From the sequence record NC_049955.1: DNA of 45,560 nt; one strand, given 5' to 3'. The DNA is from Escherichia phage ev243. Numbering within the stretch: the first letter of the stretch is position 1; every line of letters starts with the position of its first letter. Position numbers: made by a program. This document shows, in pieces, positions 39,301-42,300 of this stretch.

Positions 39301-42300
39301 CACTGGATATTGAGTTTGGATTCTGGCTGGATTCGGCAGCGAGCGACAAAAATGCTCTGTGTGCTCACTGGCTAACTGAGGCCGACGACGCGCTCAATTC
39401 TGAGTGGGTAAGCCACGGTGCAATCTGGAATAACCCACCGTACAGCAATATCAGGCCGTGGGTGGAAAAAGCCGCTGAGCAGTGCATACAACAGCGACAG
39501 ACGGTAGTTATGCTTGTGCCAGAGGATATGTCAGTCGGATGGTTCAGCAAGGCTCTGGAGAGTGTCGACGAAGTTCGCATTATCACTGATGGACGGATTA
39601 ATTTTATCGAACCATCGACAGGGCTGGAGAAGAAGGGAAACAGCAAAGGCTCCATGCTGCTGATTTGGCGACCGTTCATCAGTCCTCGACGGATGTTTAC
39701 TACCGTATCCAAAGCGGCATTGATGGCGATCGGGCAGGGCGTCAGGAGGGCGGCATGAGGCGACAGCGACGAAGTTTCACCGACATCATCTGCGAAAACT
39801 GCAAATACCTTCCAACGAAACGCTCCAGAAATAAACGCAAGCCAATCCCAAAAGAATCTGACGTAAAAACCTTCAATTACACAGCTCACCTGTGGGATAT
39901 CCGGTGGCTAAGATATCGTGCGAGGAAATGACAATGGATTATTCACAGTTAAGTGATTTTGAAATTAACAGAATGGTAGGAGACATAATTTTTAAAGGCC
40001 TTTGGGCAAGTAAACCGGAAACATCAGGGAATAACACCAACAAATGGTATTACGGAAATGCTGATACAACTTTTGAGCCATTAAATCATTTGCCTGACTA
40101 CTGCAATGATCCGAGCGCTTCATGGCCGATTATTGAGAAATACAGGATTTCTATCTTAGACCAGTTAACTGAATGGTGTGTGGATGCAAAAGGCGTAAGC
40201 CCAATATTTGATACCAGACCTCTCCGCGCCGCCATGATTGTCTTTCTCCTGATGCAGGAGGCCAATAATGCTTAGCCCATCTCAATCCCTTCAATACCTG
40301 AAAGGAAGCATAGAGCGGGCTTCAATGTGCACAGAGTGGATTCTATCTAGGTTTAGCGCATACAGAAGATTGCCGGTAAAGGGCATGCCAAGCAAGTCGA
40401 TGCTGCATATGCAAAAGAATGCGCGCTGGAAGGTATGGCGAGAACACAGGTTATCTGGCTGAAAGAGGGGGTTATTAAGGCGTGAATACCTACAGCATCA
40501 CATTACCTTGGCCTCCGAGCAATAATCGCTATTACCGCCATAATCGCGGACGCACGCACATCAGCGCAGAGGGGCAGGCATACCGCGATAACGTCGCCCG
40601 AATCATTAAAAACGCAATGCTAGATATCGGCCTGGCTATGCCTGTGAAAATCCGCATTGAGTGCCACATGCCGGATCGCCGTCGCCGTGACCTGGATAAT
40701 CTGCAAAAAGCCGCTTTTGACGCACTCACTAAAGCAGGTTTCTGGCTGGATGATGCTCAGGTCGTTGATTACCGCGTTGTGAAGATGCCTGTTACCAAAG
40801 GTGGGAGGCTGGAACTGACCATCACCGAAATGGGGAATGAATGATGTTTGAGTTTAATATGGCAGAACTTCTTCGCCACCGCTGGGGGCGTCTGCGCTTA
40901 TATCGTTTCCCCGGTTCTGTTTTGACCGATTACCGAATACTGAAGAATTACGCCAAAACACTGACAGGAGCAGGAGTATGAAGTCAGAGATAACAATCAA
41001 CTAATACTGTTTTGTTGATTTTTGCTTGTAATTGGCGTTCTGGTCTGAGTTTTGTGGAGTAAGTTGATGCGTGATATTCAGATGGTTCTTGAGCGTTGGG
41101 GAGCGTGGGCGGCTAATAATCATGAAGATGTGACCTGGTCGTCCATTGCCGCCGGTTTTAAGGGATTAATTCCTTCAAAAGTAAAATCTCGCCCGCAATG
41201 TTGTGACGATGACGCGATGATCATTTGCGGGTGCATGGCCCGTCTGAAAAAGAACAACAGCGATTTGCACGATTTATTAGTAGATTATTATGTAGTCGGT
41301 ATGACATTCATGTCACTGGCAGGTAAGCATTGCTGCTCTGATGGTTATATCGGGAAAAGGTTACAAAAGGCTGAGGGCATAATTGAAGGGATGTTAATGG
41401 CATTAGATATCCGGTTAGAGATGGATATCGTTGTTAATAACTCTAATTAATACGCCAATTATTTACTAAAAGTTATTAAAAATGGGGCGTTGAAACGCCC
41501 CCAAAAATAAAGGGTAATATATAACAGAAGGTTTGTATAGTTAGAAGCAAGGTTGTGCTTCTAAAGGAAGTGGCTTGAGGGAGCCACTTATATGTTGGGG
41601 AGGCAAAGCCTCCCACAACATATCTTTTAGTAATCAAATTAGAACTGGTAAACCATACCTACAGCAACGATATCATCGGTAGCAACGCCAGATGCTTTCG
41701 TGAAATCGCTCTTATCAATCAGGTTGATTTTGTAGTCAACAAAAGTGGACATATTTTTGTTGAAGTAATAGGTTGCACCTACATCAACATATTCAACCAG
41801 GTCCTGATCACCCCAAACACCCAAGTCTTTTCCTTTAGAATGCAGGTAAGCAACGGATGGACGCAGGCCGAAGTCGAACTGATATTGTGCAACAGCTTCG
41901 AAGTTTTGTGCTTTGTTGGCAATATGGTTATTACCAAAAACAGTCATGTTCTGGGTTTCAGAATAGGTGGTGGCCAGATAGATGTTGTTCGCATCATATT
42001 TCAGACCAGCTGCCCATACTTCAGCATTTTGACCAGAAGCATTCAGACCGTTGTTACCGTAGATAACCTGATTATTAGTGCGATCAGATTTAGCATAGGT
42101 TGCACCCACGCCGAATCCTTCATACTCATAAGTAGTTGAGAAACCGAAACCATCGCCATTAGCTTCAGTTACTTCATTTCGGTCATTTTTGCCCTGATAC
42201 TGAGCTGCAAAGTTCAGGCCATCAACCAGACCAAAGAAGTCGTTGTTACGATAAGTTGCAACACCTGTGGTGCGACCAGTCATGAATACATCTGTTTGGG

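What the first reader, a model, noticed from the sequence alone, without database searches (positions are those of the whole stretch)
41451..41640. Hairpin-dense 190-nt region between Q and the porin 3' end: candidate small RNA (IpeX-like) overlapping pR'/qut
Seen: four stem-loops in 150 nt; on the minus strand the transcript leaving the porin stop would cross three hairpins and end at ggggcg-tttcaa-cgcccc followed by attttt. Established knowledge (recollection): an sRNA named IpeX that inhibits porin expression was mapped between nmpC and the Q-like gene of DLP12; pR' and qut normally lie just downstream of Q. Inference: a bifunctional region encoding the porin 3' UTR/sRNA on one strand and the Q target on the other.
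Basis: partly seen in the sequence, partly recalled or inferred. Interest (0 to 1): 0.5.

Follow-up and report, generated by a model that had tools for sequence, protein, structure and literature searches.

The report
IpeX porin-silencing RNA, not pR'
The hairpin-rich stretch is this prophage's copy of the already described small RNA IpeX, the tail of the phage porin mRNA that shuts down the host porins OmpC and OmpF.

Summary
Window 41451-41640 holds four real stem-loops (fold z = -9.3 on the minus strand, -8.1 on the plus strand). The last one on the minus strand is an intrinsic terminator, GGGGCGTTTCAACGCCCC followed by ATTTTT.

The stretch is the ortholog of ipeX from the E. coli K-12 cryptic prophage DLP12. 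K-12 ipeX (574365-574531, reverse strand, 167 nt) maps to window 41476-41641 on the minus strand, with 160 of 166 bases identical. It starts at the porin stop codon and ends at the terminator. The same element is present in about 2,500 of 5,426 complete E. coli genomes, in phage PA-2 and in about 34 other phages.

A rarer allele only 72-74% identical keeps all four helices through compensatory changes. It also keeps an unpaired core, AACCUUCUGUUAUNUAUUACCCU.

The homolog of the 933W late promoter region lies at 43092-43177, upstream of the holin gene. The porin gene with ipeX is therefore an inserted cassette (a "moron") sitting between Q and pR'.

One thing worth noting: the conserved unpaired core is strongly complementary to the ompC translation-initiation region (15 + 9 bp, overlapping the MicC site) and to the ompF Shine-Dalgarno sequence. 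Published papers state that no such complementarity exists.

The element itself is already known, so interest is low.

The parts
41476..41641 (-). ipeX ortholog: the 3' UTR of the porin mRNA, from the porin stop codon (41641-41639) to the end of the terminator U-tail. 166 nt.
   Evidence: K-12 ipeX is listed at 574365-574531 (reverse strand, 167 nt) in a supplementary table of PMC8313858. It aligns to window 41476-41641 with 160/166 identity and one indel. The covariance model R1 matches 41471-41641 on the minus strand at 215.5 bits (expected, since the window sequence was used to build the model).
41590..41623 (-). Hairpin H1 (8 bp, a one-base bulge, then 7 bp; loop UUU). On the plus strand it is followed by CTTTTAG (41624-41630), so it may also terminate transcripts coming out of Q.
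   Evidence: Folds. Three of its pairs carry compensatory changes. The plus-strand T-run after H1 is present in nearly all variants: TTTTTCG in 59 copies, TTTTAG in 36, TTTTTTAA in 2.
41568..41589 (-). Hairpin H2 (8 bp). Its loop CCCUCA (41581-41576) is conserved and is complementary to the UGAGGG / GAGGG Shine-Dalgarno sequences of ompF and ompC.
   Evidence: Folds. The stem covaries at 3 pairs (GC to AU, CG to UA, UA to GC). The loop is unchanged in all 36 distinct variants but one (CCCUAA).
41541..41564 (-). Hairpin H3 (9 bp).
   Evidence: Folds. The divergent allele rebuilds it from a different sequence (AAGAAAGACA / UGUCUUUUCUU).
41505..41533 (-). Unpaired linker, the candidate seed. RNA sequence: 5'-AACCUUCUGUUAUAUAUUACCCUUUAUUU. 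The core 41533-41511 is conserved even in the 72-74% allele. It is complementary to the ompC leader (15 bp + 9 bp) and to the ompF Shine-Dalgarno region (10 bp).
   Evidence: Unpaired in the minimum-free-energy fold. Conservation. Complementarity and controls.
41476..41501 (-). Rho-independent terminator of the porin/ipeX transcript: stem GGGGCGU/ACGCCCC, then AUUUUUAA.
   Evidence: Terminator scan. The stem is essentially invariant across homologs. The 3' end of K-12 ipeX falls at the end of this U-tail.
41639..42721 (-). Phage porin gene (NmpC / Lc / 'OmpD' type, 360 aa). Its mRNA carries ipeX as its 3' UTR.
   Evidence: ORF and Pfam Porin_1 match. Annotated as porin in DLP12, PA-2 and many phages.
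41067..41450 (+). Antiterminator Q gene (QuuD type, 127 aa), convergent with the porin gene.
   Evidence: Pfam PF06530. Related to Q21 in the PDB at E = 7.6e-8. 79% identical to the Q of 933W. Near-identical to K-12 quuD.
43092..43119 (+). Predicted late promoter pR': -35 TTTACG, 16-nt spacer, -10 TATGCT. The predicted start is near 43126.
   Evidence: Aligns with the annotated pR' of 933W (TTTACG, 16 nt, TATCAT). The pR' start site of Stx phages was mapped by dRNA-seq 258 nt upstream of tR' (PMC7547250), which fits that annotation.
43120..43181 (+). Early transcribed region of pR'. It contains the conserved block TAAGAGTGGTTAC (43122-43134; presumed pause / Q-loading region) and a terminator-like hairpin (43150-43171) with a T-rich tail.
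   Evidence: The block is a single exact match in the window and is also present in DLP12, 434B and 933W. Terminator scan. Alignment to 933W.

Best explanation
The region is ipeX, the roughly 166-nt 3' untranslated tail of the prophage porin mRNA (nmpC/lc type), read on the minus strand.

How it is made: transcription starts at the porin promoter, passes the porin stop codon at 41641-41639, crosses three stable hairpins and a roughly 39-nt unpaired linker, and ends at the intrinsic terminator (41501-41476). The literature says the sRNA is then released from the porin mRNA by processing. I infer that cleavage occurs in the AU-rich single strand just after the stop codon.

What it does: IpeX lowers synthesis of the host porins OmpC and OmpF, so a lysogen swaps its own porins for the phage porin.

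Likely mechanism (inferred here, not shown): the conserved unpaired linker base-pairs directly with the translation-initiation regions. On ompC it forms 15 bp across the Shine-Dalgarno sequence plus 9 bp on the MicC target site. On ompF it forms about 10-11 bp across the Shine-Dalgarno sequence. This would block ribosome binding.

What it is not: the Q-dependent late promoter. The porin gene with ipeX is a cassette inserted between Q and pR', and pR' sits at 43092-43177 and fires away from the cassette.
For: Identity (shown):
- The region is 96-97% identical to the DLP12 quuD-nmpC spacer.
- K-12 ipeX coordinates map to 41476-41641 on the minus strand, 160/166 identical.
- The phage PA-2 lc downstream sequence, identical to K-12's over this stretch, matches over the whole region.
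- A review describes IpeX as 167 nt, from DLP12, made from the porin promoter as part of the porin transcript and then processed, and as controlling OmpC. Other papers report repression of ompC and ompF.

Structure (shown): fold z = -9.3; terminator; four helices kept with 7 compensatory pairs, reached by 0 of 500 shuffles; the divergent allele folds into the same architecture on its own.

Linkage to the porin rather than to Q: strain UTI89 keeps ipeX and the porin gene but has lost Q.

Not protein-coding: the 53-aa ORF is frameshifted or truncated in most variants.

Seed (prediction):
- The linker core is unchanged across alleles that differ by 26-28% elsewhere.
- Cofold binding energies are -21.0 kcal/mol for ompC (z = -7.7, 0 of 150 linker shuffles as good) and -20.6 for ompF (z = -3.6, 0 of 150). 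They are only -10.3 for ompA and -8.8 for the phage's own porin leader, neither distinguishable from shuffles.
- The local IpeX-ompC duplex is -26.4 kcal/mol, against -22.5 for the annotated K-12 MicC with ompC, used as a positive control.
- The ompC target site is at least 99% identical in 5,357 of 5,426 E. coli genomes.

pR' lies elsewhere.
Against: - No expression data exist for this window. RNA production, processing and porin repression are all taken from work on DLP12 and PA-2.
- The original paper (Castillo-Keller et al. 2006) was not available to me.
- Later papers state that no complementarity exists between IpeX and ompC and that the regulation is indirect, or that it does not rely only on complementarity. 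This conflicts with the pairing mechanism proposed here.
- With the K-12 IpeX sequence the cofold margin over background is smaller: -16.5 (ompC) and -15.1 (ompF) against -11.9 for ompA.
- The 9-bp second helix with ompC is lost in the divergent allele.
- The compensatory changes come mostly from one divergent clade of three sequences, so they represent few independent events.
- Rfam has no IpeX family to test against.
Confidence: 0.85

Rival explanations
1. One reading: the same 190 nt encode the porin 3' UTR/sRNA on the minus strand and the late promoter pR' with its qut site (the Q target) on the plus strand.
For: In lambda, 933W and relatives, pR' lies directly after or overlapping the end of Q. 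By eye there is a weak plus-strand promoter-like pair (TTGAAA at 41490-41495, TAATAT at 41515-41520), followed by hairpins, the last of which has a T-run.
Against: The spacing of that pair is 19 nt, and the promoter scan reports nothing on the plus strand of the region. The TTGAAA lies in the terminator loop and changes in the divergent allele. The region does not align with 933W pR' although the Q proteins are 79% identical. A clear homolog of 933W pR', its early region and first hairpin is at 43092-43177, next to the holin gene. It is conserved in DLP12 and 434B and lies beyond the porin gene in 84 of 99 related loci.
Confidence: 0.03
2. The element is IpeX, but it works indirectly, as the literature states. 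It would not pair with ompC or ompF mRNA. Instead it would titrate a protein (Hfq, ProQ, RNase E or another factor) or act through another regulator. On this view the complementarity found here is fortuitous or a remnant of shared ancestry.
For: Papers state that no complementary sequence exists and that the regulation is indirect or not only complementarity-based. IpeX is described as Hfq-independent; my recollection of the 2006 abstract is that this applied to ompC specifically. Three very stable hairpins plus a U-rich terminator module would make a good protein sponge. The K-12 cofold margin is modest.
Against: The local duplex with ompC (-26.4 kcal/mol; 15 contiguous bp covering the Shine-Dalgarno sequence plus 9 bp) is stronger than the MicC-ompC control (-22.5). 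Linker shuffles never reach the observed energy for ompC or ompF. The predicted specificity (ompC and ompF yes, ompA and the phage's own porin no) matches the reported phenotype. The complementary core is the best-conserved unpaired segment of the RNA. A long duplex with ompC and a short one with ompF would also fit Hfq being needed only for ompF (my recollection of the 2006 abstract, not verified).
Confidence: 0.3
3. The hairpins are only transcriptional and mRNA-stability furniture between two convergent genes: bidirectional terminators and protection against 3' exonucleases. They would have no trans-acting role in this phage.
For: The terminator faces the porin gene. H1 followed by a T-run faces Q. 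Stacked 3' hairpins commonly stabilise mRNAs.
Against: This does not explain the conservation of a 23-nt unpaired core and of the H2 loop across alleles that have diverged 26-28%. It also does not explain the published trans effect of ipeX on OmpC and OmpF. The roles are not mutually exclusive.
Confidence: 0.08
4. The region encodes a small protein: the 53-aa ORF at 41476-41637 (minus strand), or the plus-strand 'ORF1' annotated in PA-2.
For: The ORF is listed. Some phage records annotate hypothetical proteins here.
Against: The minus-strand ORF has a TTG start with no evident ribosome-binding site. It is cut to 16 or 34 aa or frameshifted in most natural variants by 1-nt indels and substitutions. 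The substitution pattern preserves base pairs, not codons.
Confidence: 0.01

Closest known systems
IpeX sRNA of E. coli K-12 cryptic prophage DLP12 and phage PA-2 (Castillo-Keller, Vuong and Misra 2006)
   Same: It is the same element. It has the same position (from the nmpC/lc stop codon to the Rho-independent terminator, facing the Q gene), the same length (166 against 167 nt) and 96% identity, and the linker is identical apart from one base outside its conserved core.
   Different: There are six substitutions and one indel, in the 5' single strand, the H1 bulge and loop, one linker base outside the core, and the terminator loop. Here the porin gene is intact, whereas in K-12 it is interrupted by IS5, so the RNA can be made as a true 3' UTR of a full porin mRNA, as in PA-2.
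MicC sRNA (Rfam RF00121), the chromosomal repressor of ompC
   Same: The predicted target site on the ompC leader overlaps. The IpeX linker contains GUUAUAU...CCUUUAUU, and the MicC 5' end is GUUAUAUGCCUUUAUUG. The predicted duplex energies are comparable.
   Different: There is no overall homology: nothing in the region matched MicC or any related Rfam family even at E <= 10. The IpeX seed is internal, carries a 5-nt AUUAC segment where MicC has a single G, and extends over the ompC Shine-Dalgarno sequence, whereas the MicC seed is at its 5' end. IpeX is a 3'-UTR product of a phage gene, whereas MicC is a free-standing gene next to ompN.
sRNAs derived from the 3' UTR of an mRNA by processing (for example CpxQ from cpxP, SroC from gltI; from general knowledge)
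   Same: It shares the parent mRNA's terminator and is released by processing downstream of the stop codon. The seed lies in an unpaired stretch ahead of the terminator.
   Different: The parent gene is a phage cargo gene (a moron). The RNA silences the host paralogs of the very protein its parent mRNA encodes.
Short terminated pR' transcripts: lambda 6S RNA and StxS of Stx phages (PMC7547250)
   Same: These are also phage sRNAs encoded next to Q, in a phage with a closely related Q. The window does have the homologous pR' region with its hairpin, at 43092-43177.
   Different: They are on the other strand, at another place, and arise differently. The StxS kind comes from pR' on the late strand. 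IpeX comes from the porin promoter on the opposite strand. The 74-nt StxS part of the 933W transcript has no counterpart in the window, where the alignment ends after the first hairpin.

Membership tests
IpeX (DLP12 / PA-2 porin 3'-UTR sRNA) | Sequence orthology to the annotated K-12 ipeX (574365-574531, reverse strand) | tested here: met
   160/166 identical with one indel; maps to window 41476-41641 on the minus strand.
IpeX (DLP12 / PA-2 porin 3'-UTR sRNA) | Lies directly downstream of the stop codon of an nmpC/lc-type phage porin gene, on the same strand, between that gene and the Q gene | tested here: met
   Porin at 41639-42721 (-) and Q at 41067-41450 (+). Same arrangement as DLP12, PA-2 and 434B.
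IpeX (DLP12 / PA-2 porin 3'-UTR sRNA) | Ends at a Rho-independent terminator | tested here: met
   GGGGCGTTTCAACGCCCC followed by ATTTTT on the minus strand. The K-12 3' end coincides with this U-tail.
IpeX (DLP12 / PA-2 porin 3'-UTR sRNA) | Made from the porin promoter and released by processing | not testable with these tools
   Stated in a review. No transcript data exist for this window.
IpeX (DLP12 / PA-2 porin 3'-UTR sRNA) | Lowers OmpC and OmpF but not OmpA | not testable with these tools
   Repression of OmpC and OmpF. The 'not OmpA' part is my recollection of the 2006 abstract, and instead names ompC and ompA as affected. In silico, the linker pairs well with the ompC and ompF leaders and not with ompA. 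This is a prediction only.
Lambdoid late promoter region (pR' with qut: Q-binding element and sigma-dependent pause) | A sigma-70 promoter on the Q strand inside the region | tested here: not met
   The scan finds no plus-strand promoter-like site in 41451-41640. The best candidate by eye has a 19-nt spacer and its -35 is not conserved.
Lambdoid late promoter region (pR' with qut: Q-binding element and sigma-dependent pause) | Homology to the pR' / early transcribed region used by a closely related Q (933W; start site mapped in Stx phages) | tested here: not met
   No meaningful alignment of the region with 933W pR'. The homolog is at 43092-43177, beyond the porin gene in 84 of 99 related loci.
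Lambdoid late promoter region (pR' with qut: Q-binding element and sigma-dependent pause) | Q-dependent read-through of a downstream terminator | not testable with these tools
   Needs a reporter or an in vitro transcription assay.
Any curated Rfam family (including MicC, MicF and other porin-regulating sRNAs) | Covariance-model match at or near the gathering score | tested here: not met
   No match in the region at gathering thresholds. With E <= 10 there is only an 18-bit chance hit to sau-19, whose gathering score is 80. Nothing matched under the name IpeX.

The most novel reading that the evidence does not exclude
IpeX may not be an indirect regulator lacking complementarity, as papers still state. 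It may be a classical antisense sRNA. Its conserved, unpaired 23-29-nt linker would combine a MicC-like site on the ompC leader (extended across the Shine-Dalgarno sequence; 15 + 9 bp) with a complement of the ompF Shine-Dalgarno region (10-11 bp). One phage 3' UTR could then silence both major host porins by occluding their ribosome-binding sites while sparing the phage's own porin mRNA. The long ompC duplex and the short ompF duplex would also explain why only the ompF effect was reported to need Hfq (my recollection of the 2006 abstract).
Probability: 0.5. Interest if true: 0.4.

Novelty: already known. Interest (0 to 1): 0.25.

Why it matters
The element itself is a known, very common prophage sRNA, so finding it again adds little. 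Three points are useful.

1. It corrects the map of this prophage type. The porin gene with ipeX is an inserted cassette that separates Q from its late promoter by about 1.6 kb. Late transcription therefore starts beyond the cassette and does not cross it.

2. Neither the K-12 RefSeq stretch read here nor any Rfam match marks ipeX. A covariance model and a structurally informative divergent allele now exist for it.

3. The conserved seed and its strong complementarity to the ompC and ompF ribosome-binding regions make a 20-year-old open question directly testable with a few point mutations: how does IpeX work? If confirmed, it would show a phage copying a host sRNA's targeting logic to exchange the host's porins for its own. 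That is plausibly a superinfection-exclusion and envelope-remodelling strategy.

Tried and rejected
- Rfam. Gathering thresholds on the whole window and E <= 10 on 41000-43400 gave no family for the region. The Trp_leader hit at 43055-43177 (20.8 bits against a gathering score of 41) is only the pR'-proximal terminator.
- The original IpeX paper could not be read, by DOI or by PMC id. Coordinates came from a supplementary table of a later paper. My memory of its abstract is marked as recollection wherever used.
- A search for 'ipeX' alone returned immunology papers about IPEX syndrome.
- Unrestricted RNAduplex of the full RNAs gave meaningless duplexes with huge interior loops.
- The longest-helix count allowing G-U pairs was weak. 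ompA also reached 15 bp, but with many G-U pairs and inside hairpin H1. I replaced both measures with cofold binding energies against linker-only shuffles, plus a MicC positive control.
- My first dinucleotide-shuffle script timed out, so the pairing shuffles are mononucleotide shuffles.
- MAFFT misaligned the helices of the divergent allele, so RNAalifold saw only part of the structure. This was solved by building a covariance model and realigning.
- A 20-mer scan of one genome per species returned four metagenome-assembled contigs labelled Lachnospiraceae, Rikenella, Bacteroidales and Sphingobacterium. On inspection these are chance 20-mer matches in unrelated sequence. Only the E. coli records are real.
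- Small-protein hypothesis: rejected.
- A phage with a related Q but no porin (Lambda_ev203) was fetched to define the cassette borders. Its Q C-terminus and downstream region differ, and it carries another reverse-oriented cargo gene (the lipocalin Blc), so it did not give clean borders.
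Full report
**1. The observation**

Window 41451-41640 is the spacer between two convergent genes. On the plus strand is a Q antiterminator gene (41067-41450; Pfam PF06530, E = 8.5e-54). It is related to Q21 in the PDB at E = 7.6e-8 and is 79% identical to the Q of phage 933W. On the minus strand is a porin gene (41639-42721; Pfam Porin_1, E = 3.6e-152).

The hairpins are real. As minus-strand RNA the stretch folds to -67.5 kcal/mol, against -34.3 +/- 3.6 for shuffles (z = -9.3). 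The plus strand gives z = -8.1.

In RNA sense (minus strand), starting at the porin stop codon, the order is:
- an AU-rich single strand
- H1 (41623-41590)
- H2 (41589-41568)
- H3 (41564-41541)
- an unpaired linker of about 39 nt (41540-41502)
- an intrinsic terminator, GGGGCGU-UUCA-ACGCCCC followed by AUUUUUAA (41501-41476)

The terminator scan calls the last element independently.

**2. What it is**

The spacer is 96-97% identical to the quuD-nmpC spacer of the K-12 cryptic prophage DLP12. It is found in about 2,500 of 5,426 complete E. coli genomes and in 34 phage records. One of those is the historical PA-2 lc record J02580. Over this stretch PA-2 and K-12 are identical.

A supplementary table of PMC8313858 lists K-12 ipeX at 574365-574531, reverse strand, 167 nt. 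That interval begins with the nmpC stop codon. It aligns to window 41476-41641 on the minus strand with 160 of 166 bases identical and one indel. It therefore runs exactly from the porin stop codon to the end of the terminator U-tail.

A review describes IpeX as a 167-nt DLP12 RNA made from the phage porin promoter as part of the porin transcript, released by processing, and controlling OmpC. Other papers report repression of both ompC and ompF.

The region is therefore the ortholog of a known sRNA. It returned no Rfam match, and ipeX is not annotated in the stretch of the K-12 RefSeq record I read.

**3. Related sequences and structure**

I scanned IMG/VR with the porin stop-codon context, which does not bias the downstream sequence. 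This gave 120 loci, 99 with a full-length copy, in 36 distinct variants.

Most variants are 91-100% identical to the window. Three (L070, L026, L056) are only 72-74% identical, although their flanking Q and porin proteins are about 89-94% identical to the window's. This allele also occurs in E. coli, in 15 complete genomes, several of them porcine ETEC strains.

The divergent allele folds on its own into the same four hairpins plus an unpaired linker.

I built a covariance model (R1) and used it to produce a structure-aware alignment. On that alignment:
- 97.2% of cells are paired, against 42-50% in the slid controls.
- 7 pairs have changes on both sides, reached by 0 of 500 shuffles.
- Helices 1-3 each carry compensatory pairs. 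The terminator stem is essentially invariant.

Caveat: the compensatory changes derive mainly from one clade, so there are few independent events.

Two unpaired elements are conserved across both alleles:
- the H2 loop CCCUCA
- the linker core AACCUUCUGUUAU[A/U]UAUUACCCU

The 53-aa ORF that overlaps the region is cut or frameshifted in most variants, so the region is non-coding.

In strain UTI89 the element stays with the porin gene although Q is deleted. This ties it to the porin gene rather than to Q.

**4. Where pR'/qut really is**

In phage 933W the annotated pR' is TTTACG, a 16-nt spacer, then TATCAT. It overlaps the end of Q and is followed by a 'qut' site and a terminator-like hairpin. 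In the related Stx phages the pR' start site was mapped by dRNA-seq 258 nt upstream of tR', which fits that annotation.

The Q-porin spacer of the window does not align with this region.

Window 43092-43177 does align:
- TTTACG, a 16-nt spacer, TATGCT
- the conserved block TAAGAGTGGTTAC (43122-43134, a single exact match in the window)
- a hairpin AAACCCGCCG...CGGGTTT followed by a T-rich tail

The alignment is column by column with 933W, and the sequence is identical in DLP12. It lies about 90 nt upstream of the holin ORF.

In 84 of 99 loci that contain the ipeX core, this motif lies 1.4-2.7 kb to the right (about 1.5 kb in 79 of them; about 2.7 kb where IS5 interrupts the porin gene). It is never in the Q-porin spacer. 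The 15 loci without it mostly end too early.

The promoter scan finds nothing on the plus strand of the spacer.

Conclusion: the porin gene, its promoter region and ipeX (roughly 41451 to 43050) form a cassette inserted between Q and pR'. Weak similarity to the 933W Q 3' end resumes about 40 nt before the -35 hexamer. The cassette borders are inferred.

The plus strand may still have a modest role. H1 is followed on that strand by a T-run in almost all variants, so it could terminate transcripts that leave Q without antitermination. This is inferred.

**5. How it most likely works**

*Shown here:* the identity, position, terminator, conserved structure and conserved unpaired core.

*Taken from the literature:* production from the porin mRNA and repression of OmpC and OmpF.

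*Inferred here:* the targeting mechanism.

The linker is complementary to the K-12 ompC leader:
- IpeX 5'-AACCUUCUGUUAUAU pairs with ompC 5'-AUAUAACAGAGGGUU. This is 15 contiguous pairs with one G-U, and it covers the Shine-Dalgarno GAGGG.
- IpeX CCUUUAUUU pairs with ompC AAAUAAAGG (9 bp).
- The two helices are separated by a small internal loop.

This overlaps the site matched by the 5' end of MicC, GUUAUAUGCCUUUAUUG. That this is the validated MicC target site comes from general knowledge.

The same linker (UAUUACCCUU) pairs with the ompF Shine-Dalgarno region GAGGGUAAUA.

Cofold binding energies, compared with shuffles of the linker only:

| Target leader | Energy (kcal/mol) | z | Shuffles as good |
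|---|---|---|---|
| ompC | -21.0 | -7.7 | 0/150 |
| ompF | -20.6 | -3.6 | 0/150 |
| ompA | -10.3 | -0.5 | 43/150 |
| phage's own porin | -8.8 | -1.65 | 10/150 |

As a positive control, MicC gives -26.4 with ompC, and about -10 to -13 with ompF and ompA. The local IpeX-ompC duplex (-26.4) is stronger than the local MicC-ompC duplex (-22.5).

The ompC site is at least 99% identical in 5,357 of 5,426 E. coli genomes.

The divergent allele keeps a 15-bp helix on the ompC Shine-Dalgarno sequence and improves the ompF pairing, but it loses the 9-bp helix.

Evidence against the pairing model:
- A 2023 paper states that no complementary sequences exist and that the regulation is indirect. A 2025 review says the mechanism does not rely only on complementarity.
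- With the K-12 RNA the cofold margin is smaller.

I put the probability of direct pairing at about 0.5.

**6. Comparison with what is known**

This is IpeX itself, so it is already known. It works like a processed 3'-UTR sRNA and, if the pairing holds, like MicC at the ompC leader. It is not a MicC homolog. It is not a pR'-derived RNA of the lambda 6S / StxS kind, which would come from 43126 onward on the other strand.

**7. Verdict**

- The element is already known, and interest is low (0.25).
- The one item worth following up is the conserved seed and its complementarity to ompC and ompF, which contradicts a statement still repeated in the literature.

Noticed in passing
window 43092-43181 (+): Homolog of the 933W late promoter region: TTTACG, 16 nt, TATGCT, the conserved block TAAGAGTGGTTAC, and a terminator-like hairpin at 43150-43171. 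It lies about 90 nt upstream of the holin ORF. This is the likely real pR'/qut/tR' of this prophage, and its short terminated transcript would be the counterpart of the 5' part of StxS / lambda 6S RNA.
   Followed up: yes
window 41505-41533 (-), compared with K-12 ompC and ompF leaders (L016, L017): The conserved unpaired linker of IpeX is complementary to the ompC leader (15 + 9 bp, covering the Shine-Dalgarno sequence and overlapping the MicC site) and to the ompF Shine-Dalgarno sequence (10 bp). Papers state that no complementarity exists.
   Followed up: yes
L070:2495-2666, L026:6288-6459, L056:4668-4839: A rarer ipeX allele (72-74% identical; present in 15 complete E. coli genomes, several of them porcine ETEC strains) sits between Q and porin genes whose proteins are about 89-94% identical to the window's. 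The spacer has diverged much faster than its flanks, yet it keeps all four helices, the H2 loop and the linker core.
   Followed up: yes
window 41576-41581 (-): The H2 loop CCCUCA is unchanged while its stem covaries. It is the complement of UGAGGG, the ompF Shine-Dalgarno context, and could be a second (kissing-loop) contact. Not analysed further.
   Followed up: partly
window 41590-41630 (+): On the plus strand H1 is followed by a T-run (CTTTTAG here, CTTTTTCG in K-12, CTTTTTTAA in the divergent allele). It may be a terminator for transcripts leaving Q, which would shield the porin gene from antisense transcription.
   Followed up: partly
window 31615-31673 (-): A full-length Rfam match to the lambda cIII thermoregulator element (RF01804; 88.5 bits, E = 2e-20). 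The window therefore carries a lambda-type early-left region.
   Followed up: no
L001 (NC_000913.3 571000-581000): The K-12 RefSeq annotation of this stretch lists no ipeX feature between quuD and nmpC, although micF and micC are annotated as ncRNAs elsewhere in the same record.
   Followed up: partly
L006 (UTI89), L008 (strain JB2), L004 (phage Lambda_ev203): Variants of the locus. UTI89 keeps ipeX and the porin gene but lacks Q. JB2 has an IS5-like element replacing most of ipeX and the porin gene. Lambda_ev203 has a related Q followed by a different reverse-oriented cargo gene (the lipocalin Blc). The site just after Q looks like a hot spot for cargo insertion.
   Followed up: partly
L009, L010, L012, L013 (metagenome-assembled contigs from the genome-contig scan): Exact 20-mer matches to the ipeX core in contigs labelled Lachnospiraceae, Rikenella, Bacteroidales and Sphingobacterium are chance matches in unrelated sequence, not ipeX.
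   Followed up: yes
window 42722-43050 (-): The porin upstream region is about 330 nt long and AT-rich. The PA-2 record annotates CRP/CAP binding sites in the equivalent stretch. Regulation of the porin/ipeX promoter was not examined.
   Followed up: no
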